Position numbers and translations under genes: made by a program
Shown here: piece after piece, positions 6,957 through 25,637 of the stretch
Numbering within the stretch: the stretch's first letter is position 1
Layout: every line of letters begins with the position of its first letter
Notes under the pieces: generated by a model
What the model was told of the DNA's origin: nothing
What the model saw: the letters and a program-made list of their open reading frames with translations, nothing else
Databases searched by the model: none
DNA from: a virus
Lineage: Duplodnaviria; Heunggongvirae; Uroviricota; Caudoviricetes
Strand: one strand, 5' to 3'
IMG/VR virus record: IMGVR_UViG_2565956721_000001
Length of the DNA: 30,377 bases

Positions 6957-9514
6957 CGTCCACCTCCGGAGAACAGACCACCATCGCGCATCTGTGCCTG
7001 GATTTCATCACGGGCACCCTTGCGGGCCATGTCATACACCGCCTTCATCATCTGTGGACCTGGCAGACCATTCGTACCGTCGTTCTGAATCACCACGTTG
7101 TTGTTCTGCTCAAACCTGATACCCTCTGAACGCCGCATTTGCGCCGGACTTCCGGTGCCACCGACATAACCGCCGGTGGCATAGCCGCGCATCAGCCGGT
7201 AGAGATTTCCCACGCCAATCCGGCTGGTTGCCTCCTTCGTGAAGACAAATTCACCACGGTGAACAATCCCCGCTGGCTCATATTTGCCGCCGGTTCCCGT
7301 AAATCCTCCGGTTGCAAAATGGAGTTTCGCCGCAGCGGCCTGAATGGCTGTACCGCCTGACGCGGATGCGCCGCCACCAACAGCCCCGCCAATAGCGCTG
7401 CCGATACTCCCGACAATCCCCACCATTGCCTGCTTAAGCAGAATTTCTGTCATCATGGACAGCACGGAACGGGTGAAGCTGCGCCAGTTCTGTTCACTGC
7501 CGGTCAGCATCGCCGCCATATTCTGCGCAATACCATCAAAGGTCTGCGTGGCTGCACTTTTTACCTGCGACATACTGTCCGTGGCGCTCTCTTCCCACTC
7601 ACTCCAGCCGGACTTCAGGCCTGCCATCCAGTTCCCGCGAAGCTGGTCTTCAGCCGCCCAGGTCTTTTTCTGCTCTGACATGACGTTATTCAGCGCCAGC
7701 GGATTATCGCCATACTGTTCCTTCAGGCGCTGTTCCGTGGCTTCCCGTTCTGCCTGCCGGTCAGTCAGCCCCCGGCTTTTCGCATCAATGGCGGCCCGTT
7801 TTGCCCGTTGCTGCTGTGCGAATTTATCCGCCTGCTGCGCCAGCGCGTTCAGGCGCTCCTGATACGTAACCTTGTCGCCAAGCGCAGCCAGCTGGCGTTT
7901 GTACTCCAGCGTCTCATCTTTATGCGCCAGCAGGGATTTCTCCTGTGCAGACAGCTGGCGACGTTGCGCCGCCTCCTCCAGTACCGCGAACTGACTCTCC
8001 GCCTTCCACAAATCCCGGCGCTGCTGGCTGATTTTCTCATTTGCTCCGGCATGCTTCTCCAGCGTCCGGAGTTCTGCCTGAAGCGTCAGCAGAGCAGCAT
8101 GAGCACTGTCTTCCTGACGATCGCCCGCAGACACCTTCACGCCGGACTGTTTCGGCTTTTTCAGCGTCGCTTCATAATCCTTTTTCGCCGCCGCCATCAG
8201 CGTGTTGTAATCCGCCTGCAGGATTTTCCCGTCTTTCAGTGCCTTGTTCAGTTCTTCCTGACGGGCGGTATATTTCTCCAGCGGCGTCTGCAGCCGTTCG
8301 TAAGCCTTCTGCGCCTCTTCGGTATATTTCAGCCGTGACGCTTCGGTATCGCTCTGCTGCTGCGCATTTTTGTCCTGTTGAGTCTGCTGCTCAGCCTTCT
8401 TTCGGGCGGCTTCAAGCGCAAGACGGGCCTTTTCACGATCATCCCAGTAACGCGCCCGCGCTTCATCGTTAACAAAATAATCATCCTTGCGCAGATTCCA
8501 GATGTCGTCCGCTTTCTTAAACGCAGCCTCTGCCTTAATCAGCATCTCCTGAGCGGTATCAGGACGACCAATATCCAGCACCGCATCCCACATGGATTTG
8601 AATGCCCGTGCTGTCCTGTCTGCCCAGGTTTCCAGCGTGCCCATGTTCTCTTTCAGGCGTCGGGTCTGGTCATCAAACCCTTTCGTTGCGGCCTCGTTCG
8701 CCGCCTGCAATGCCCCGGATTCATCGCCGGAACGCTGCAACTGAGCAACATACGCAATCTGCTCCGCCGTTACGTTATGGAACTGGCGCGCCATCGCCGT
8801 CAGCCCCGACGTCGGGTCAGTGGTCAGCTTCCCGAAGGCTTCAGCGACCTTGTCCACCTCCACGCCGGATGCAGAGGAGAAACGCGCCACACTCTGGCTG
8901 ATGGATGCAATCTGAGCCTCACCGCTTACTCCCGCCTTAACCAGTGCGCTGAGTGACTCGCTGGTCTGGTTAAACGTCAGCCCTGCCGCCTGCCCGGCTC
9001 TGGACAGGACCAGCATACGATCTGCCGTCAGACCCGACTGATTGCCGGAAAGGACCAGCGTTTTGTTGAAATCGGACAGGGTTGAGTTACCCTGATACCA
9101 GGCATACGCCAGCGCACCGGTCGCCACCGCCAGCGAGGTGGCCCCGACCATCGGCAGGGTGATCGCACCGGCAAGCCCCCGGAACATGGGGATCATCCCG
9201 CCGAAGGAGTCCTTAACCTGACCACCCTGTTGCAGCAGGATCAGCCACGGGCTTTGCCCGCCTGCAAGCTGCGTGGCCACGTCGGTGAACTGTGCAGGCA
9301 GCATACGCATGGCGGCTTTATACTGCCCGACGGAAATCCCCGCTTTCTGTGCAGCCAGCGCCTGTCGGCTCAGCGACTGTTCAACGACTGCCGCTGTTTT
9401 TTTCGCATCACTTTCCGTACCGGAAAAATGACGCCTGACTCTGGCCATCTGCTCGTCAAATCTGGCCGCATCCAGACTTAAATCAACGACCAGATCGCCT
9501 ACCGGTTCAGCCAT
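6953..9514 (-). CDS. H: tail tape measure protein H
   Basis: 853-aa ORF, same length as lambda gpH; Ala/Gln-rich coiled-coil sequence. Confidence 0.95.
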   Translation of the reverse strand: MAEPVGDLVVDLSLDAARFDEQMARVRRHFSGTESDAKKTAAVVEQSLSRQALAAQKAGISVGQYKAAMRMLPAQFTDVATQLAGGQSPWLILLQQGGQVKDSFGGMIPMFRGLAGAITLPMVGATSLAVATGALAYAWYQGNSTLSDFNKTLVLSGNQSGLTADRMLVLSRAGQAAGLTFNQTSESLSALVKAGVSGEAQIASISQSVARFSSASGVEVDKVAEAFGKLTTDPTSGLTAMARQFHNVTAEQIAYVAQLQRSGDESGALQAANEAATKGFDDQTRRLKENMGTLETWADRTARAFKSMWDAVLDIGRPDTAQEMLIKAEAAFKKADDIWNLRKDDYFVNDEARARYWDDREKARLALEAARKKAEQQTQQDKNAQQQSDTEASRLKYTEEAQKAYERLQTPLEKYTARQEELNKALKDGKILQADYNTLMAAAKKDYEATLKKPKQSGVKVSAGDRQEDSAHAALLTLQAELRTLEKHAGANEKISQQRRDLWKAESQFAVLEEAAQRRQLSAQEKSLLAHKDETLEYKRQLAALGDKVTYQERLNALAQQADKFAQQQRAKRAAIDAKSRGLTDRQAEREATEQRLKEQYGDNPLALNNVMSEQKKTWAAEDQLRGNWMAGLKSGWSEWEESATDSMSQVKSAATQTFDGIAQNMAAMLTGSEQNWRSFTRSVLSMMTEILLKQAMVGIVGSIGSAIGGAVGGGASASGGTAIQAAAAKLHFATGGFTGTGGKYEPAGIVHRGEFVFTKEATSRIGVGNLYRLMRGYATGGYVGGTGSPAQMRRSEGIRFEQNNNVVIQNDGTNGLPGPQMMKAVYDMARKGARDEIQAQMRDGGLFSGGGR

Positions 9515-17623: not shown

Positions 17624-19535
17624 TCACTCCTCCGGACAGCTTCGCTGCCAGTTCTTTAAGGGTTGGCCGGGTCGTCTCTTCTTCCCGGGATTTTGCCAGT
17701 ACAGCCAGATCAAGCTGCCAGCGTTGCACGGACACACGTAATGCCGCGTAGGCATACACCAGGCAGTCCAGCGCTTCGTTACGCCGCTTTTTGTTATCCC
17801 ACAGCAGACGCATCTTTCCTTTTTCCCACTTCTCCACAAGCTCTTCCGCGACCAGTTGCTGCGCCTCTGTCTGCGAAAAAATCTCCGGATCATCAGGAAA
17901 ACGGATAGCATACGACGTGGCTTCATCCACAGGCGTGGGATCGGCTTTCATACGGGCATAGAGAATTTCTTTTGCGGTGTCCGTCCCCACTTCACACAGA
18001 TACACGCCCCGCTGATTGCGGGTTTTTGGCATGGTGATCACCGGCTTGCCATAGACAGATGCGCCTTTTACCGGCAGCACCCGGAAAACACCGTGTTTTT
18101 TTGACCTCTGATAAACGATTTCGCCATCGATCCCCCCGGTGTCCCAGCAGACACGGGAAATGGTCATTTCGGTTCCGTCTGCATGGCGGTATTTTTTGTT
18201 GATCGCCGCATCCACACGTAACAGCGTCTCTTCCTCATCGGGACGCCCCATAATGATGATTTTATCCACCAGAAAGGCTTCCTCTCCCGGAGCCCATCCC
18301 CAGACATACATCTCAAAACGGTTTCGCTGCGAGTCAATGCCCGCCGTCAGATAAACCACCCGGGCAGGCACCGCCGCCGTGTAACGCACAACCTTATCCA
18401 TCAGCACCTGGTGATCGAGTTTTTCGCCCACAGCCTCTTCCCAGGTCTCGCCCAGCGTGGTGTTCACAAAGGTTTTCAGGCCGTTGGGATCTTTCAGTGC
18501 ATCCAGCCAGTCATAGACAATCTGTACCCAGGTGGTGAACGGACTGTACGCCGTCCAGATATGGAAAGTGATGGAGCGCGGCGGCGGAATTTCATTATCC
18601 GCGGCGCTGAAAAACATCAGGCCGTCACGGGTCCACATGCCCGTGTTTTCACAGATCCACCGCCCGTTACTCTGGTCAAGCTCAGACTGATGGATCACAC
18701 AGCCATGATGCTCACAAAGGTAGAAAACACTTTCTGGCTTATTCTTCTCCCACTTAAGACCGAAAGGCGAGGCATCATCGCCAAATTTCAGATACTGCTC
18801 CTCCCCACAGTGCGGACAGGGCACATAAAAACGCATGAAGTGTGCCGACTCGTTAGCGGCTTTTTCGATCTGGCAGGAGCCTTTGATTTTAGGCGTCGAG
18901 CCGCGAATGGATTTTGGCCATACAGAGCCCTCAATACGTTTATCCCCCAGCAGGGTTGGCGAACCCTCTTTTTCAACATCCGGTTCGAACGAGGAAAGCT
19001 CGTCATAACAGACCACATCCACGGATTTTTCACGGTAGTTTTTTGCTGCCGCACCACCCAGACACCAGAACCCCACACCGGAGGAAAAACGCTTCAGGGT
19101 GAGCGTATTATCGCGGTGTTTTCTTCCGAACCATGGAGCCAGCTCCAGCAATGCAGGAACATCCCTTATCGTTGGCTCAACATGAGATTTCATAAAATCT
19201 TCAGCAGCTGAGTCCGTGGGCTGAAAAAGAAGGCTGTTGCGTGATTTATGCTCAATAAAATAAGCCTCCACTCCCAGCAACATCTTTGTATAACCAACAC
19301 GGGCAGATTTAATCAGGTTAACCGTGCGAATCAGATCGTTGCCCATACAGTTCATGATGCCAACCTGAAACGGCAGTGTTTCCCATCGCCCCGGGGTATA
19401 AGACGACTCTTTAGGAAGGTAATAATGTTTATTGGCCCACTGAACTGTCGTCAGTGGAACAGGAATAATGAGAGATAAAAGCCCTGTAGCTATCGCACCG
19501 GCTGCATTAGCTGCCTTCTGCGCGTCTGAAATCAT
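17607..19535 (-). CDS. A: terminase large subunit A
   Basis: 642 aa from MISDAQ, chosen so that the YYLPKES motif has lambda spacing; overlaps the Nu1 3' end by about 29 nt as in lambda. Confidence 0.9.
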
Positions 19536-20055
19536 CGATCCACCCGCCCACGTTTTCACCGGCCTTAGCTGCAACATTGGAGGCTTTCGCGATTTCAGTT
19601 TTCACCACATCAAGGTGTGATGGTGAAATGTCCGGATATTTACGCTGTAATGTCAACGGCACACGCACAAGTATCCCCGAAATCTCCTGTGCCACACGTT
19701 GCAGAATGAAGGTAAACAGTTCAGTTTCCAGCACTACTCCGTCTTCACGGGCATTTTTCAGTTCCTGCGCATCTGCCTGCGCTTTTGTGAGCCGGTAGCG
19801 TTCATAGTCAATGGTGCCGGGTTGTAAATCTGACTCCGCTGCCGCACGCAAATCGTCCAGTTCTTTGCGGAGCTTTTCGTTTTCGATATCAGTTTCCCTC
19901 TGCGCATACCACTGAATTGCCATGGCAGTATCAAATACAGATTCAATGCCCTTACTACCTTTGGAGGCGCAAGGGAGTCCCTGAGACTGCCAGCGTTCAA
20001 TCGTCCGCGGGTCCACGTTGAAAATTTCGGCAAGCCTCTTTTTATTAACCTTCAT
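19507..20055 (-). CDS. Nu1: terminase small subunit Nu1
   Basis: 182-aa [31 protein letters not shown] with a winged-HTH N-terminus; matches recalled lambda Nu1. Confidence 0.95.
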
Positions 20056-20099: not shown

Positions 20100-20290
20100 A
20101 GAAAAAGGCATTTTCGGACACTTTCATGTCGGACCTTTACGGATGCAATATTAAAAAAAACAAAAAGTTATATTCGAGAAGTACCGACACGATTTTCCCT
20201 GAAAAATTTTCATAAATAGTGAAAAACCGCGAGGTCGCCGCCCCGTAACCTGTTGGATCGACGGAAAGGACCCGAAAACGAGAATAATTA
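20100..20290 (-). other. cos site (cosB, cosN, cosQ side)
   Basis: Minus strand at 20243..20232 reads GGGCGGCGACCT (the lambda 12-nt cohesive end), followed by CGCGGTTTTTCACTATTTATGAAAATTTT and inverted CGACATGAAA/TTTCATGTCG motifs toward Nu1 (cosB R-site-like); the other flank resembles the lambda right end. Confidence 0.85.
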
Positions 20291-20294
20291 TCAC

Positions 20295-20324
20295 TTACAG
20301 CAAGAATCGAATCTGATCTATTAT
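20295..20324 (+). promoter_or_regulatory. candidate sigma70 promoter for the plus-strand small-ORF pair
   Basis: TTACAG, 18-bp spacer, TATTAT, about 70 nt upstream of the 83-aa ORF; assigned by eye. Confidence 0.3.
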
Positions 20325-20391
20325 GGTGCTTGCTATTATGTGCCGGCACAAGTGCGTCGTTTACCGTCATTTCACACAGAGGCATCATCAA

Positions 20392-20643
20392 ATGAAAATC
20401 AGAAATATTCTCGCTATCTCCCTTGCGACATCATCCTTCAGTTGCCTGGCATTTAAATCCTCGCCCAATGTGCTACCAGGACCAACGAATCAACTAACTG
20501 CGGTAGAAAGTAAAATTATCGGACATTTTTATGCCCCACACAGTACATTACCCGGAACAACCATCACAGGGACATGTGACGCCTCCCCCGTCCCGGGATG
20601 CACCTGTCCGTTTTGTACTATGCTGCGTAGCCAAAACCGATAA
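20392..20643 (+). CDS. small secreted Cys-rich protein of unknown function (83 aa)
   Basis: Internal ATG of the track ORF 20323..20643, preceded by AGAGG; predicted signal peptide MKIRNILAISLATSSFSCLA; C-terminus TGTCDASPVPGCTCPFCTML has five Cys. Not recognised. Confidence 0.5.
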   Translation: MKIRNILAISLATSSFSCLAFKSSPNVLPGPTNQLTAVESKIIGHFYAPHSTLPGTTITGTCDASPVPGCTCPFCTMLRSQNR

Positions 20644-20704
20644 CATCCGCATTTACCTGGTATTCCATGATGAGTTCACGCAGCGACTGATAGAGGAAGG
20701 AAAG

Positions 20705-20884
20705 ATGGTTAGTAAAAGCAAGGCGCATTGCCGCCGCATGCTGCAGGCATTGCAACAGACGAGAGCAGGTATTTTTGACCAGTTGGAAAACTGCCAGCAT
20801 ACTTTGCCCGAGTATATCGCCATCTCATCGGAAACCAGTGCAACTCTTATTCATCGGGTTCCACCAGAGAAAAAGAAGAAATGA
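20705..20884 (+). CDS. small protein of unknown function (59 aa)
   Basis: ATG preceded by a strong Shine-Dalgarno GAGGAAGG; MVSKSKAHCRRMLQALQQTRAGIF...PPEKKKK; inner start of track ORF 20531..20884. Confidence 0.5.
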   Translation: MVSKSKAHCRRMLQALQQTRAGIFDQLENCQHTLPEYIAISSETSATLIHRVPPEKKKK

Positions 20885-21006
20885 ACAGTGAGGCGTTGTG
20901 TGGCATACAACGCCTTCTTCCATCATTCCTCGTCAGCCATGACAAAAATATAACCGCTGGCTCTTTCATTTTTCTCCTGCTTCCAGCCCCTCTCTACCTG
21001 GAAGCA

Positions 21007-21333
21007 TCAAGGACGTGACGGCGTAAAGATAAATTGTCTCTTCACTCCCTGACAGGGGCGATTCTTTTCAAATCGCCATTTCGCCATGGCCTTCACCACT
21101 TCATCACGAAACAAATTATGAGGCTCTGAGCGGAGAAAAACGATCCGTGTCACAGTCCCATCAGCACCAATATCGAACTTAACCTCAACCAGCCCCTTGA
21201 TATAATTTGCTGCAGCATATTCCGGATATCGTGGATACACCGTCACTAATTGCCGGGGCTCATCAGCTTTTTGCTGCGAGCATCCCACTGCCAGGACAGA
21301 TAACAGAAAAAGTAGTAAAAGGCGTCTTTTCAT
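21007..21333 (-). CDS. lipoprotein with TonB C-terminal-like domain (109 aa)
   Basis: ATG at 21333 preceded by AGGA; signal plus lipobox MKRRLLLLFLLSVLAVGC; mature part has the TonB-C signature (YPRYPEYAAANYIKGLVEVKFDIGADGTV...AMAKWRF). Confidence 0.65.
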   Translation of the reverse strand: MKRRLLLLFLLSVLAVGCSQQKADEPRQLVTVYPRYPEYAAANYIKGLVEVKFDIGADGTVTRIVFLRSEPHNLFRDEVVKAMAKWRFEKNRPCQGVKRQFIFTPSRP

Positions 21334-21813
21334 TTTTATTCCTACGGGTCTTATTCTGACAATATATCCTGTGTTCCAGACTGCCACATCACCACATCCT
21401 GTGCCATTATCTGACTCACATTACATACATCGCATCGGGATACAGTAGTAGCACTTTCTGTAATACAGCTTCCTGTTTCTTCCACCATCGCACCGGGATA
21501 AACCCGCGAATCATTAACGCGGTAAAAACCCGGTGTGCATCGTTTTTAATTATTCCCGCACACTCACGCAGAAGGAATTCCCCGTCGGGCTACGGTCATG
21601 GTTAATGCGGGAATACGGCGACGATACAGCGCAGCTAAAAGGGTAATGGACGGATAGACCGGTTTATTTCATTCCACAGGATTCTGAGTGTCCCCAACTT
21701 CCTCCAATAGTCTGAGCCCACCTGTGTAGTTTTAATTTTCATCAATCCATTTAACTATCGTTTAATTGTTGTCACATAGGATTCTGCCGTTTTTAACAAT
21801 GCAGGATAATAAG

Positions 21814-22107
21814 ATGAAAAAAATGTTGTTTTCTGCCGCTCTGGCAATGCTTATTACAGGATGTGCTCAACAGACGTTTACTGTTGGAAACAAACCTACA
21901 GCAGTAACACCAAAGGAAACCATCACCCATCATTTCTTCGTTTCGGGAATTGGGCAGAAGAAAACTGTCGATGCAGCAAAAATTTGTGGTGGTGCAGAAA
22001 ATGTTGTTAAAACAGAAACCCAGCAAACATTCGTAAATGGATTGCTCGGTTTTATTACTTTAGGCATTTATACTCCGCTGGAAGCGCGTGTGTATTGCTC
22101 ACAATAA
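21814..22107 (+). CDS. bor: Bor lipoprotein (serum resistance; Iss family)
   Basis: 97 aa MKKMLFSAALAMLITGCAQQTFTV...EARVYCSQ, near identical to recalled lambda Bor; opposite strand to the late genes as in lambda. Confidence 0.9.
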   Translation: MKKMLFSAALAMLITGCAQQTFTVGNKPTAVTPKETITHHFFVSGIGQKKTVDAAKICGGAENVVKTETQQTFVNGLLGFITLGIYTPLEARVYCSQ

Positions 22108-22138
22108 TTGCATGAGTTGCCCATCGATATGGGCAGCT

Positions 22139-22600
22139 CTATCTGCACTGCTCATTAATATACTTCTGGGTTCCTTCCAGTTGTTTTTGCATAGTGATCA
22201 GCCTCTCTCTGAGGGTGAAATAATCCCGTTCAGCGGTGTCTGCCAGTCGGGGGGAGGCTGCATTATCCACGCCGGAGGCGGTGGTGGCTTCACGCACTGA
22301 CTGACAGACTGCTTTGATGTGCAACCGACGACGACCAGCGGCAACATCATCACGCAGAGCATCATTTTCAGCTTTCGCATCAGCTAACTCCTTCGTGTAT
22401 TTTGCATCGAGCGCAGCAACATCACGCTGACGCATCTGTATGTCAGTAATTACCGCGTTCGCCAGCGTCAGTTCTCTGGCATTTTTGTCGCGCTGGGCTT
22501 TGTAGGTAATGGCGTTATCACGGTAATGATTAACAGCCCATGACAGGCAGACGATGATGCAGATAACCAGAGCGGAGATAATCGCGGTTACTCTGTTCAT
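22139..22600 (-). CDS. Rz: i-spanin Rz
   Basis: 153 aa from [17 protein letters not shown]; its ATG overlaps the R stop; matches recalled lambda Rz. Confidence 0.9.
22198..22380 (-). CDS. Rz1: o-spanin Rz1 lipoprotein, embedded in Rz in the +1 frame
   Basis: 60-aa [27 protein letters not shown]...PPPPPAW, lipobox plus Pro-rich, fully inside Rz. Confidence 0.9.
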
Positions 22601-23472: not shown

Positions 23473-23897
23473 AGCTGTGTGACGAAGTAACCACTCTTAA
23501 CAGCATAACCAATTTTTTACGTACGTAAACTACTAAATGATATTTGTGAGAATGCCACCGAGTGTTCAAAACACCACCACAAATGCATAAGAAAACTTCA
23601 ACAAATAACCAGTTAATAATTTCCGATGTTATTTTTAGTTTGTTTAAATTAAGCTAAAGAATTATAGAGCACTTATAAATAAGTGCCATTAATATAAATT
23701 AGCTAATAGATTTATTTTTGTTCAGACAAGAGCCATGAATAGGATTAGATAGAAAAGGTTCAGATAAAAATAGAGATCTACTTCACAAATTAAATGAGAA
23801 ACTAAAACTTACATCTTGAAATAATCACATTGATTAGATGAATATTTATCGCGCAGTGACATCATTTTTTAATAATAGTTCAAAAAAAGGGCGTACA

Positions 23898-24980
23898 ATG
23901 AAAAAATTAACAGTGGCAATTTCTGCTGTAGCTGCATCAGTACTGATGGCGATGTCTGCTCAGGCAGCTGAAATTTATAATAAAGACAGTAACAAGCTGG
24001 ATCTATACGGGAAAGTTAATGCCAAGCACTACTTCTCCTCTAATGATGCAGATGATGGTGATACTACTTATGCCCGTCTTGGCTTCAAAGGTGAAACCCA
24101 AATCAACGATCAACTGACTGGTTTCGGTCAGTGGGAATATGAATTCAAAGGCAACCGTGCTGAATCTCAAGGTTCTTCCAAAGACAAAACCCGTCTTGCA
24201 TTTGCAGGCCTGAAATTTGGTGATTACGGCTCAATCGATTACGGCCGTAACTACGGTGTAGCATACGACATCGGTGCGTGGACTGACGTTCTGCCAGAAT
24301 TCGGTGGTGATACCTGGACCCAAACAGATGTGTTCATGACTGGTCGCACTACTGGTGTTGCAACTTATCGTAACAACGACTTCTTTGGTCTGGTCGATGG
24401 CCTGAACTTTGCTGCTCAGTATCAGGGTAAAAATGACCGCACTGACGTAACTGAAGCCAATGGTGATGGTTTCGGTTTCTCCACTACTTATGAGTATGAA
24501 GGATTCGGCGTGGGTGCAACCTATGCTAAATCAGATCGCACTGACGGTCAGGTCGCCTATGGTAAGAGCAAATTCAATGCCTCCGGCAAAAATGCGGAAG
24601 TATGGGCTGCAGGCCTGAAATATGATGCGAACAATATCTATCTGGCTACCACATATTCTGAAACTCAGAATATGACCGTTTTTGGTAATAACCATATTGC
24701 AAACAAAGCACAAAACTTTGAAGCAGTAGCACAATATCAGTTTGACTTCGGTCTGCGTCCATCTGTTGCTTACCTTCAGTCAAAAGGTAAAGACCTTGGT
24801 GTTCATGGTGACCGAGACTTAGTCAAGTATGTCGATGTCGGTGCTACTTACTACTTTAATAAAAACATGTCCACTTTTGTTGATTACAAAATCAACTTAA
24901 TTGACGATAGTAAGTTTACCAAAACAGCTGGTATTGATACCGACGACATCGTCGCTGTAGGTCTGGTTTATCAGTTCTAA
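23898..24980 (+). CDS. nmpC: outer-membrane general porin (NmpC/OmpD family)
   Basis: 360 aa from [23 protein letters not shown] (signal peptide) with AEIYNKD...LVYQF (C-terminal Phe), typical OmpC/OmpF-family beta-barrel; start preceded by AAGGG; AT-rich upstream region. Confidence 0.85.
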
Positions 24981-25168: not shown

Positions 25169-25552
25169 TCAATTAGAATTATTAGCAACGATATCCATAT
25201 CTAACCGGATATCTAATGCCATTAACATCCCTTCAATTATGCCCTCAGCCTTCTGTAACCTTTTCCCGATATAACCATCCGAGCAGCAATGCTTACTTGC
25301 CAGTGACATGAATGTCATACCACATACATAATAATCTACTAATAAATCGTGTAAATCGCTGTTGTTCTTTTTCAGACGGGCCATGCACCCGCAAATGATC
25401 ATCGCGTCATCGTCACAACATTGCGGGCGAGATTTTACTTTTGAAGGAATTAATCCCTTAAAACCGGCGGCAATGGACGACCAGGTCACATCTTCATGAT
25501 TATTAGCCGCCCACGCACCCCAACGCTCAAGAACCATCTGAATATCACGCAT
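25169..25552 (-). CDS. quuD: late-gene antiterminator Q (QuuD-like)
   Basis: 127 aa from [24 protein letters not shown] with a GGAG Shine-Dalgarno; Cys-rich ([12 protein letters not shown]); sits upstream of the lysis region after rusA/ylcG as in DLP12. The track ORF starts 5 codons earlier at TTG. Confidence 0.8.
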
Positions 25553-25637
25553 CAACTTACTCCACAAAAATCAGACCAGAACGCCAATTACAAGCAAAAA
25601 TCAACAAAACAGTATTAGTTGATTGTTATCTCTGACT

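What the first reader, a model, noticed from the sequence alone, without database searches (positions are those of the whole stretch)
21007..21333. Prophage lipoprotein with a TonB C-terminal-like domain
The 109-aa ORF has a lipobox signal (LAVGC) followed by a domain carrying the TonB-C signature. A small outer- or inner-membrane-anchored TonB-C mimic could compete with TonB at TonB-box receptors. That would give superinfection exclusion against TonB-dependent phages and colicins, by analogy with the Cor and Llp lipoproteins that block FhuA. This function is hypothetical.
Basis: inference. Interest (0 to 1): 0.5.

Follow-up and report, generated by a model that had tools for sequence, protein, structure and literature searches.

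The report
Prophage outer-membrane lipoprotein copying TonB's tip
A phage-21-type prophage carries a small, lysogen-expressed lipoprotein that is only the receptor-docking end of the bacterial TonB protein, tethered to the outer membrane; it probably interferes with TonB-powered entry of other phages and colicins, but nobody has tested this.

Summary
Window 21007-21333 (minus strand) encodes a 108-aa protein with a lipoprotein signal peptide (LAVGC, Ser at +2) and a complete TonB C-terminal domain (Pfam E=7e-13). The AlphaFold model superposes on E. coli TonB-CTD at about 1 Å.

The window is a phage-21-type prophage. The gene is already annotated ("TonB C-terminal domain protein", "TonB family protein") and occurs in 1225 of 5426 complete E. 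coli genomes.

It is not a decaying tonB fragment:
- dN/dS is 0.12 against a 72%-identical clade.
- Klebsiella relatives at about 40% identity keep the lipobox, the short tether and a mature length of 91-94 aa.
- The lipoproteins form a group separate from true TonB.

It always sits between the lysis cassette and the terminase genes. In the near-identical LF82 prophage, published RNA-seq shows transcription in lysogens while the flanking late genes stay silent.

The mechanism is inferred. I favour an energy-uncoupled, outer-membrane-tethered TonB decoy that dampens TonB-dependent import of phages and colicins (confidence about 0.4). Precedent exists: periplasmic TonB fragments inhibit the TonB system. 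Against it, siderophore-dependent strains carry the gene, and receptors far outnumber TonB.

It has neither the Cor/Llp fold nor any homology to lambda p78/YbcV, and the PHROG "spanin" label looks wrong.

The parts
21007..21333 (-). CDS of the 108-aa lipoprotein (stop included). Same protein as phage 21 CPT_21_73 and RefSeq WP_000830178.1, 'TonB family protein'.
21280..21333 (-). Signal peptide and lipobox, residues 1-18: MKRRLLLLFLLSVLAVGC. The Cys18 codon is 21280-21282. Ser at +2 predicts outer-membrane sorting.
   Evidence: Sequence read. PS51257 pattern matched in 22 of 23 family members, none with Asp at +2. Lipidation itself was not tested.
21019..21258 (-). TonB C-terminal domain, residues about 26-105. 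Aligns to E. coli TonB 153-230 or beyond. Includes the YP motif (Y36-P37) and the beta3 strand (residues 94-103).
21340..21343 (-). Shine-Dalgarno AGGA, 6 nt before the ATG.
   Evidence: Sequence; annotated as RBS in phage 21.
21353..21361 (-). Candidate extended -10 promoter element, TGTCAGAAT here and TGTTAGAAT in the 72%-identical clade. It would place a transcription start about 15-20 nt before the ATG. Inferred only.
   Evidence: Alignment; relaxed scan. The standard consensus scan found no sigma-70 site on this strand. Lysogen transcription is reported.
21024..21633 (-). Extent of the mobile cassette shared with the second E. coli clade (JLK-2012, Lys8385Vzw, Stx1a phages): the ORF plus about 300 bp upstream.
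   Evidence: 71% identity over 610 window bases, a 648-column alignment; nothing else in 20244-22200 is shared apart from a 43-bp match at 22158-22200 with Lys8385Vzw
21465..21633 (-). Strongly conserved non-coding element upstream of the gene. It is more conserved than the ORF between clades. It is also present in 432 phage records that mostly lack the gene, so it is not specific to it.
20892..20914 (.). GC-rich hairpin (GGCGTTGT-7 nt-ACAACGCC) about 95 nt downstream of the stop codon. Possible bidirectional terminator. Weak evidence.
   Evidence: Sequence; not picked up by the consensus scan.
21814..22107 (+). Context: bor/iss lipoprotein gene on the opposite strand.
   Evidence: Present next to the cassette in 46 of 80 IMG/VR loci.
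22139..22600 (-). Context: Rz i-spanin, with Rz1 o-spanin embedded at 22198-22380. The lysis cassette is complete without the TonB_C protein.
19507..20055 (-). Context: small terminase subunit (Nu1 type). The cos site lies near 20244.

Best explanation
The gene is a lysogen-expressed moron cassette. Its product is an outer-membrane, inner-leaflet lipoprotein consisting of a short tether and a complete TonB C-terminal domain. It lacks TonB's membrane anchor and proline-rich spacer, so it cannot be energised by ExbB/ExbD.

Held about 10 residues from the outer membrane, it sits where TonB boxes emerge from TonB-dependent transporters. Most likely it binds those TonB boxes, or the TonB boxes of incoming colicins, non-productively. 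That would make it a dominant-negative decoy. It would lower the chance that a TonB-dependent phage (T1, phi80, HK022/N15 types), colicin (B, D, Ia/Ib, M) or microcin gets the energised step it needs to enter.

Shown here: the domain, its fold, the lipobox, purifying selection, the conserved genome slot and transcription in lysogens. Inferred: outer-membrane location, TonB-box binding, and any exclusion phenotype.
For: Domain and fold:
- TonB_C scores above Pfam and TIGRFAM cut-offs.
- It aligns to E. coli TonB 151-230 at about 40% identity, with the YP motif and the aromatic residues F53, F75, W86, F88 and F103 matching TonB F180, F202, W213, Y215 and F230.
- The model superposes on the TonB conformers bound to BtuB and FhuA (2gsk_B, 2grx_C) at 0.9-1.0 Å, and the beta3 strand is present.

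Anchoring:
- A lipobox is present in 22 of 23 family members, none has Asp at +2, and mature length is 91-94 aa in 21 of the 22, i.e. a short tether.

Real, selected gene:
- dN/dS is 0.12 with dS 1.5 between the two E. coli clades.
- The lipoprotein family forms a group separate from enterobacterial TonB.

Mobile cassette in a fixed slot:
- Rz lies upstream on the same strand in 76 of 80 loci and the small terminase downstream in 71 of 80, despite divergent flanking modules.
- The same slot is used in Klebsiella phages.

Expressed in lysogens:
- LF82_160 of prophage Perceval is 8-fold above prophage background.
- Its log2 FPKM is 5.0-6.6 in five conditions, against about 2.3-4.3 for the adjacent Rz and terminase genes. 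In LB it equals host tonB (PMC9928086).

Precedent:
- Periplasmic TonB fragments inhibit TonB-dependent transport (Howard 2001, as cited in PMC9841981 and bioRxiv 10.1101/2020.01.05.895219).
- T5 Llp shows that an inner-leaflet outer-membrane lipoprotein can reach the periplasmic face of FhuA, a surface that TonB also occupies.

Neighbouring genes: the adjacent morons, a porin and bor/iss, also remodel the outer membrane.
Against: - No binding or phenotype data exist.
- PADLOC has no model matching it and no paper in the library describes a function.
- The TonB residues nearest the TonB box in the complexes are not conserved. Q160 becomes Y, L or other residues, R158 becomes T and R166 becomes an invariant Y.
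- The gene sits in 23% of complete E. coli genomes, including Nissle 1917 and LF82. A strong TonB block should be costly to such siderophore-dependent strains (their dependence is from my own knowledge).
- Transporters greatly outnumber TonB, and the mRNA level is only TonB-like. Saturating the receptors therefore seems unlikely.
- The carrier phage uses LamB, so the benefit would have to be heterotypic.
- No clear sigma-70 promoter or Fur box lies upstream.
Confidence: 0.4

Rival explanations
1. TonB trap. The lipoprotein pairs with the C-terminal domain of TonB itself, in a CTD-CTD heterodimer like the TonB-CTD dimers seen in crystals. This holds the scarce TonB at the outer membrane. The outcome is the same, a dampened TonB pathway, but the target differs.
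For: The aromatic residues are conserved; from my own knowledge these are the ones that mediate TonB-CTD dimer contacts. The mRNA level is similar to that of tonB, which suits titration of a scarce partner better than titration of abundant receptors. TonB overexpression is itself dominant-negative.
Against: The best structural matches are monomeric, receptor-bound TonB conformers. The intertwined dimer 1qxx matches poorly, at rmsd 18 Å. The protein lacks the C-terminal beta4 segment. Nothing was tested directly.
Confidence: 0.12
2. An envelope or host-interaction lipoprotein unrelated to TonB function. The TonB_C fold would serve as a generic binding module for peptidoglycan, OmpA/Lpp or another periplasmic ligand. 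The benefit would be envelope robustness or serum and host survival, like the neighbouring Bor/Iss.
For: It lies beside bor/iss in 46 of 80 loci. It is found in the gut isolates Nissle 1917 and LF82. It is expressed inside macrophages at the same level as in broth. TonB-like CTDs can evolve other ligands: FusB-CTD binds ferredoxin and is among the top fold hits. Family-specific invariant residues (Y39, N43, E70, and K/R99) differ from TonB.
Against: The bor linkage is absent in clade 2 and in the Klebsiella cassettes. No peptidoglycan-binding family is detected. No phenotype is known.
Confidence: 0.2
3. A lysis accessory or spanin-like protein, as the PHROG label 'Rz-like spanin' implies, acting late in the lytic cycle.
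For: phrog_1267 matches end to end at E=5e-43 and carries that label. The gene is on the late-operon strand just after the lysis genes.
Against: A complete Rz/Rz1 pair exists upstream. The fold is TonB-CTD, not a short proline-rich o-spanin. The gene is transcribed in lysogens while Rz and terminase are silent. The label most likely comes from genomic position and the lipoprotein signal.
Confidence: 0.03
4. A functionless remnant of a captured host tonB 3' end, as the database names 'TonB fragment' and 'partial tonB-like protein' imply.
For: Database names. Many copies are 100% identical, so recent spread could mimic conservation.
Against: dN/dS is 0.12 at saturated dS. The lipobox, tether and length are conserved across clades at 40-72% identity in two genera. 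The family is separate from true TonB in the tree. The fold is predicted with high confidence. Of the 1225 records, 1221 cover at least 80% of the gene.
Confidence: 0.03

Closest known systems
TonB (E. coli P02929), C-terminal domain, residues about 150-239 (PDB 1u07, 1xx3, 2gsk, 2grx)
   Same: Same domain and fold, about 40% identity, rmsd about 1 Å. The YP motif, the aromatic core and the beta3 strand are all present.
   Different: No N-terminal transmembrane helix and no proline-rich spacer. Instead it has a lipoprotein signal and a tether of about 10 residues, so it is anchored to the opposite membrane and cannot couple to ExbBD. It scores far below the NCBIfam TonB equivalog cut-offs, 69 against 315 bits. 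Q160, R158 and R166 are replaced. It ends about 4 residues earlier.
Engineered periplasmic TonB fragments (Howard et al. 2001, J Bacteriol 183:5885)
   Same: A TonB C-terminal region exported without its energy-coupling anchor. These fragments are reported to inhibit TonB-dependent transport. This is the direct experimental precedent for the proposed mechanism.
   Different: They were artificial, soluble, overexpressed and longer (the shortest was residues 122-239). Here the protein is natural, lipid-anchored, of low to moderate expression and divergent in sequence.
Cor (phi80, N15, HK022, mEp167) and Llp (T5) superinfection-exclusion lipoproteins
   Same: Small phage-encoded outer-membrane lipoproteins acting, or proposed here to act, on the periplasmic face of a TonB-dependent transporter.
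   Different: Unrelated fold and sequence. No significant BFVD hits appear, although Llp-like folds are reported to be common there. Cor and Llp are FhuA-specific, and Llp acts allosterically. A TonB mimic would be generic for TonB boxes. The carrier phage here uses LamB, not FhuA.
Bor/Iss and the Lc/NmpC porin: lambdoid morons around the lysis cassette
   Same: The same genomic neighbourhood and the same logic of lysogen-expressed outer-membrane proteins.
   Different: No homology, and their functions differ.
lambda p78 / DLP12 YbcV
   Same: They occupy the same slot between bor and cos.
   Different: Not homologous. Lambda-type phages match only window 21525-22200 and lack the TonB_C segment. 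TonB_C is the only Pfam hit for this protein.

Membership tests
TonB_C domain (Pfam PF03544 / TIGR01352) | Profile score above the curated cut-off | tested here: met
   49.2 bits against 24.6; 47.4 against 27.1
TonB_C domain (Pfam PF03544 / TIGR01352) | TonB-CTD fold: two helices packed on a three-stranded sheet with an exposed beta3 edge | tested here: met
   AF2 mean pLDDT 85.6. Foldseek matches 1u07, 2gsk_B and 2grx_C with target TM 0.88-0.93 and rmsd 0.9-1.4 Å.
TonB_C domain (Pfam PF03544 / TIGR01352) | Binds TonB-box peptides by beta-strand addition | not testable with these tools
   No complex prediction or binding assay is available. The residues equivalent to Q160, R158 and R166 differ.
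TonB energy transducer (full-length TonB, NCBIfam PRK10819 equivalogs) | N-terminal transmembrane anchor that couples to ExbB/ExbD | tested here: not met
   The N-terminus is a cleavable lipoprotein signal peptide. Equivalog scores are 45-69 bits against cut-offs of 265-448.
TonB energy transducer (full-length TonB, NCBIfam PRK10819 equivalogs) | Proline-rich periplasm-spanning spacer | tested here: not met
   Only about 8-10 residues separate Cys18 from the domain.
Bacterial lipoprotein (PROSITE PS51257) | Signal peptide with a lipobox ending in Cys | tested here: met
   LAVGC with Cys18. The pattern matches 22 of 23 family members.
Bacterial lipoprotein (PROSITE PS51257) | Actual acylation and outer-membrane sorting | not testable with these tools
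   Only the +2 rule can be applied: Ser here, never Asp in the family.
Cor / Llp superinfection-exclusion lipoproteins | Cor/Llp sequence family or fold | tested here: not met
   TonB_C is the only Pfam hit. There is no BFVD match with E<=0.001. All top PDB matches are TonB.
Cor / Llp superinfection-exclusion lipoproteins | Inactivates FhuA and excludes FhuA-dependent phages | not testable with these tools
   Needs plating assays.
Spanin (Rz1-type o-spanin; PHROG 1267 label) | Short proline-rich lipoprotein paired with or embedded in an i-spanin gene and required for lysis | tested here: not met
   A separate Rz/Rz1 pair lies at 22139-22600 / 22198-22380. The fold is globular TonB-CTD. The gene is expressed when Rz is silent.
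Moron (lysogen-expressed accessory cassette in a prophage) | Transcribed in the lysogen independently of the neighbouring late genes | tested here: met
   Taken from published RNA-seq on the 99.9%-identical Perceval prophage: 8-fold above background in Table 1, and S1/S4 tables. Not measured for this exact window.
Moron (lysogen-expressed accessory cassette in a prophage) | Discrete cassette present or absent between otherwise related phages | tested here: met
   Absent from lambda-type phages that share the flanks. The cassette limits are 21024-21633. Identical copies lie between divergent lysis and terminase modules.
Known anti-phage defence systems (PADLOC-DB 2.0) | Match to a defence-protein model | tested here: not met
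   0 families

The most novel reading that the evidence does not exclude
Temperate phages of Enterobacteriaceae carry a dedicated outer-membrane-tethered mimic of TonB's docking domain. It would act as a generic firewall on the TonB pathway. It would make about a fifth of E. coli strains less permissive to TonB-dependent phages, colicins, microcins and possibly siderophore-antibiotic conjugates, while being tuned by low dose or selective TonB-box affinity to spare siderophore uptake. This would be a superinfection-exclusion or bacteriocin-immunity mechanism that works by molecular mimicry of a host energy transducer rather than by blocking one receptor.
Probability: 0.3. Interest if true: 0.75.

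Novelty: new variant of a known kind. Interest (0 to 1): 0.5.

Why it matters
If the decoy model is right, a common prophage gene modulates every TonB-dependent gate of the cell at once. The gene is present in 1225 of 5426 complete E. coli genomes, including Nissle 1917 and LF82.

That would bear on three things:
- host range of TonB-dependent phages used in therapy;
- sensitivity to colicins, microcins and Trojan-horse siderophore antibiotics;
- how lysogens trade iron uptake against protection.

It would also add a mimicry-based mechanism to the small set of understood exclusion lipoproteins (Cor, Llp). It would provide a natural, evolved inhibitor of the TonB-transporter interaction, an interaction that is being pursued as a drug target (PMC9841981).

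If the model is wrong, the gene is still a widespread, selected, lysogen-expressed envelope protein of unknown function that databases currently mislabel as a 'fragment' or a 'spanin'.

Tried and rejected
- **Literature.** Nine full-text searches for a characterised phage TonB-like lipoprotein found no functional study. The only direct mention is the LF82 moron table. Howard et al. 2001 (PMC99666) is not held, so it is cited through two papers that summarise it.
- **PADLOC.** No hit for the protein or its small neighbours.
- **Promoters and Fur.** The consensus scan found no sigma-70 site on the gene's strand upstream. A Fur-box scan found nothing better than 11 of 19 upstream of the gene. The best match in the window (15 of 19) lies next to cosQ and is probably unrelated. 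Iron regulation is therefore not supported, and LF82 expression is flat across conditions.
- **Upstream conserved element.** I suspected a gene-specific regulatory RNA. Rfam gave no hit, the fold z-score is only -2.7, and the element occurs in 432 phage records, most of which lack the gene. I rejected it as specific to this gene.
- **svsR sRNA of the NC-SV prophage.** It maps to cI, not here, so it is irrelevant.
- **Self-exclusion.** Rejected because phage 21, whose J C-terminus is 100% identical, uses LamB.
- **Viral structure library.** No significant match.
- dropped the start codon. It was redone.

Full report
**1. The observation**

The ORF lies on the minus strand at 21007-21333, with ATG at 21333 and the stop codon included. 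It encodes 108 aa, not 109. An AGGA Shine-Dalgarno sits 6 nt upstream. A longer GTG-initiated reading of 126 aa exists mechanically. All annotations and all homologues, however, start at MKR/MKK.

The N-terminus MKRRLLLLFLLSVLAVGC|SQQ has a basic n-region, a 12-residue hydrophobic core and a lipobox matching PROSITE PS51257. The remainder scores as TonB_C above curated thresholds: PF03544 at 49.2 against 24.6 bits, E=7e-13, and TIGR01352 at 47.4 against 27.1.

**2. What the domain is**

Against PDB sequences, the best hits are the E. coli TonB C-terminal domain structures. These include the complexes with BtuB (2gsk) and FhuA (2grx). Query residues 24-103 align without gaps to TonB 151-230. 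Counting by hand from that alignment:
- the YP motif is kept (Y163-P164 corresponds to Y36-P37);
- the aromatic residues are kept (F180, F202, W213, Y215, F230 correspond to F53, F75, W86, F88, F103);
- Q160, R158 and R166 are replaced by Y33, T31 and Y39.

An AlphaFold2 model built from a 12-sequence family alignment has mean pLDDT 85.6, and about 95 or more over residues 31-100. It has strands at 47-55, 61-70 and 94-103 and helices at 38-42 and 76-83. Foldseek places it on 1u07, 2gsk_B and 2grx_C with rmsd 0.9-1.4 Å and target TM 0.88-0.93.

It is therefore a complete TonB-CTD, including the beta3 edge strand that pairs with the TonB box in TonB. The other parts of TonB are missing. There is no transmembrane anchor and no proline-rich spacer, and the NCBIfam full-length TonB models score far below cut-off. 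Only about 8-10 residues separate the lipidated Cys from the start of the fold.

**3. Genomic setting**

The window is a phage-21-type lambdoid prophage. Positions 20400-22200 are 100% identical to Escherichia phage 21, where the gene is CPT_21_73, 'TonB C-terminal domain protein'. The first 25 kb are 99.7% identical to phages PhiR57_1 and PhiR63_2.

Reading along the late-operon (minus) strand, the order is:
- Q (25169-25567);
- a porin moron on the opposite strand (23838-24980);
- holin, then endolysin;
- Rz/Rz1 (22139-22600 / 22198-22380);
- bor/iss on the opposite strand (21814-22107);
- the TonB_C gene;
- cos (about 20244);
- Nu1 and A.

Lambda-type phages share 21525-22200 but lack the TonB_C segment. 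So the gene is a cassette in the slot that holds p78/p79 in lambda, not a homologue of those genes.

The exact gene is in 1225 of 5426 complete E. coli genomes (22.6%). It is at least 99% identical in 1203 of these, including Nissle 1917 and the type strain, and PGAP annotates it as 'TonB family protein'.

**4. Is it a real, selected gene?**

A second E. coli clade occurs in Stx1a phages, JLK-2012 and Lys8385Vzw. It is 72% identical, has the same 108-aa length and carries a VMGC lipobox. Nei-Gojobori analysis of window against JLK-2012 gives dS=1.50, dN=0.18 and dN/dS=0.12.

A Klebsiella clade at about 40% identity (phage ST13-OXA48phi12.4 and many prophages) keeps the lipobox and a 94-aa mature length. 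So do further representatives (P0046, P0057-60, P0068). Across the family:
- 22 of 23 members match the lipoprotein pattern;
- none has Asp at +2;
- mature lengths are 91-94 aa for all but one.

In a neighbour-joining tree of the domain, these lipoproteins form one group, apart from enterobacterial TonB proteins. The tree is short and unbootstrapped, so this is indicative only. The names 'TonB fragment' and 'partial tonB-like' are therefore misleading. This is an old, distinct architecture under purifying selection.

**5. A mobile cassette in a fixed slot**

Homology between the two E. coli clades covers only window 21633-21024, that is, the ORF plus about 300 bp upstream. Among 80 IMG/VR loci, out of 218 viral contigs encoding a relative:
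- Rz is upstream on the same strand in 76;
- a small terminase is downstream on the same strand in 71;
- bor is present in only 46.

The flanking Rz, endolysin and terminase proteins range from 31% to 100% identity to those of the window. Klebsiella prophages with P22-like or other packaging modules have the gene in the same slot. One K. aerogenes relative sits in an integrase-bearing island instead.

**6. Expression**

The gene is co-oriented with the late operon, so it should be read through late in infection. It is also expressed in lysogens. Prophage Perceval of E. coli LF82 is 99.9% identical over this region. Its 'TonB fragment', LF82_160 (327 bp), is listed among morons transcribed 8-fold above the local prophage background (PMC9928086, Table 1).

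The paper's tables give log2(FPKM+5) values across broth and macrophage conditions:

| Gene | log2(FPKM+5) |
|---|---|
| LF82_160 | 5.0-6.6 |
| adjacent Rz | 2.3-3.7 |
| small terminase | 2.3-4.3 |
| host tonB | 4.2-7.2 |

In LB, LF82_160 (5.6 and 6.0) is about equal to tonB (5.6). Expression does not change significantly between LB and macrophages (log2FC 0.26).

A candidate extended -10 element is conserved just upstream. It reads TGTCAGAAT at 21361-21353 here, and TGTTAGAAT in clade 2. The standard consensus scan found no promoter on this strand, so this remains an inference. No Fur box is evident.

**7. Mechanism**

The following is established knowledge. [quoted passage not shown] Irreversible adsorption of T1 needs TonB and proton-motive force (review PMC11658791).

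Periplasmic TonB fragments lacking the anchor (33-239, 103-239, 122-239) inhibit the TonB system. The original authors attributed this to competition at the transporters. From my own memory of Howard et al. 2001, phi80 infection and colicin M killing were also reduced. I could not read that paper.

T5 Llp shows that an inner-leaflet outer-membrane lipoprotein reaches the periplasmic face of FhuA. TonB binding occludes the same surface.

Taken together, the most economical reading is a natural, outer-membrane-tethered, energy-uncoupled TonB decoy. It would engage TonB boxes of transporters or of translocating colicins. That would lower the success of TonB-dependent invaders. Phage 21 itself uses LamB (PMC11336670), and the J C-terminus here is 100% that of phage 21. 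So the phage would not exclude itself, and the benefit would be heterotypic. I put this at about 0.4.

**8. Why not higher**

- Nothing shows binding.
- The TonB residues closest to the TonB box are substituted. From memory, though, TonB Q160L/K are functional suppressor alleles, and clade 2 has Leu at that position.
- Transporters far outnumber TonB, and the transcript level is only TonB-like.
- The gene is common in strains such as Nissle 1917 and LF82, which from my own knowledge depend on siderophores. A strong block would be costly, so the effect must be partial, selective or conditional.

A variant model fits the stoichiometry better: trapping of the scarce TonB through CTD-CTD pairing (0.12). 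A non-TonB ligand is also possible (0.2). TonB-like domains can evolve new partners, as FusB did with ferredoxin, and FusB is among the fold hits. The family also has its own invariant surface residues.

The PHROG 'Rz-like spanin' label and the 'dead fragment' reading are each about 0.03.

**9. Comparison with known systems, and novelty**

- **Membership.** It is a TonB_C-domain protein and a predicted lipoprotein. It is not a TonB energy transducer, a Cor/Llp protein, a spanin, a PADLOC-listed defence protein, or a p78/YbcV homologue.
- **Likely mode of action.** It most plausibly works like the engineered periplasmic TonB fragments. In biological role it would resemble Cor/Llp.
- **Novelty.** The gene itself is already annotated and has been noted as a moron, so its existence is not new. 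I found no functional study. An outer-membrane-anchored TonB mimic as an exclusion or immunity device would be a new variant of known kinds.
- **Interest: 0.5.** It is widespread, selected, expressed and cheaply testable. Its function is still entirely inferred.

Noticed in passing
window 21465-21633 (read on the minus strand): A non-coding element of about 170 bp upstream of the TonB_C gene is about 90% conserved between the two E. coli cassette clades, whereas the ORF is only 71% conserved. It contains paired segments (UUCCCGCA...UGCGGGAA and CACCGGG...CCCGGUG) and folds with z=-2.7. Rfam gives no hit. It occurs in 432 phage records, including lambda, Stx phages and HK629, where it is annotated 'promoter'. 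Most of these lack the TonB_C gene. Its function is unclear: possibly bor promoter/regulatory DNA, or a recombination linker.
   Followed up: partly
window 20274-20298: The best Fur-box-like match in the whole window (15 of 19 to GATAATGATAATCATTATC, with an overlapping 14 of 19) lies immediately next to cosQ, not next to any moron. It is probably a chance AT-rich match.
   Followed up: no
window 23838-24980 (+): A 380-aa general porin gene (Porin_1, E=2e-151) lies on the opposite strand between Q and the holin. It is an NmpC/Lc-type moron. In LF82 Perceval the equivalent gene is expressed in lysogens.
   Followed up: partly
window 20323-20643 (+) and 20531-20884 (+): Two plus-strand ORFs lie between cos and the TonB_C gene. 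The first has an internal start, MKIRNILAISLATSSFSCLA..., that looks like a signal peptide followed by a Cys-rich tail. Neither has a Pfam or significant PADLOC hit. The phage 21 record instead annotates two small minus-strand ORFs here (20618-20800 and 20847-20969). Which of these, if any, is real is unresolved.
   Followed up: partly
PHROGs family phrog_1267 (matches window 21007-21333): This PHROG is essentially the TonB_C lipoprotein family (E=5e-43, end to end) but carries the annotation 'Rz-like spanin', category lysis. That is probably a propagated mislabel that will mis-annotate phage genomes.
   Followed up: yes
window 21351-21488 (-): A 45-aa ORF directly upstream of the TonB_C gene is annotated in phage 21 as hypothetical protein CPT_21_72. 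It has no family hit. Its region aligns poorly between the cassette clades, so it is probably not a conserved gene.
   Followed up: partly
L010-L012 (Klebsiella aerogenes loci), gene at 7001-7342: A 113-aa lipoprotein relative (P0048) lies not in a lambdoid late region but in an integrase-bounded island, with a PerC-like regulator and, in two of the three loci, a ShlB-type two-partner-secretion transporter. The family therefore also travels on non-phage islands.
   Followed up: no
one search hit list (e.g. P0056, P0061, P0065): Many long proteins (300-900 aa) contain 3-6 tandem TonB_C-like stretches, and many short secreted proteins have only a TonB_C domain in other bacteria (e.g. P0077, P0089, P0107, P0135). 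Anchor-less TonB_C modules seem to be a broad, little-discussed class.
   Followed up: no
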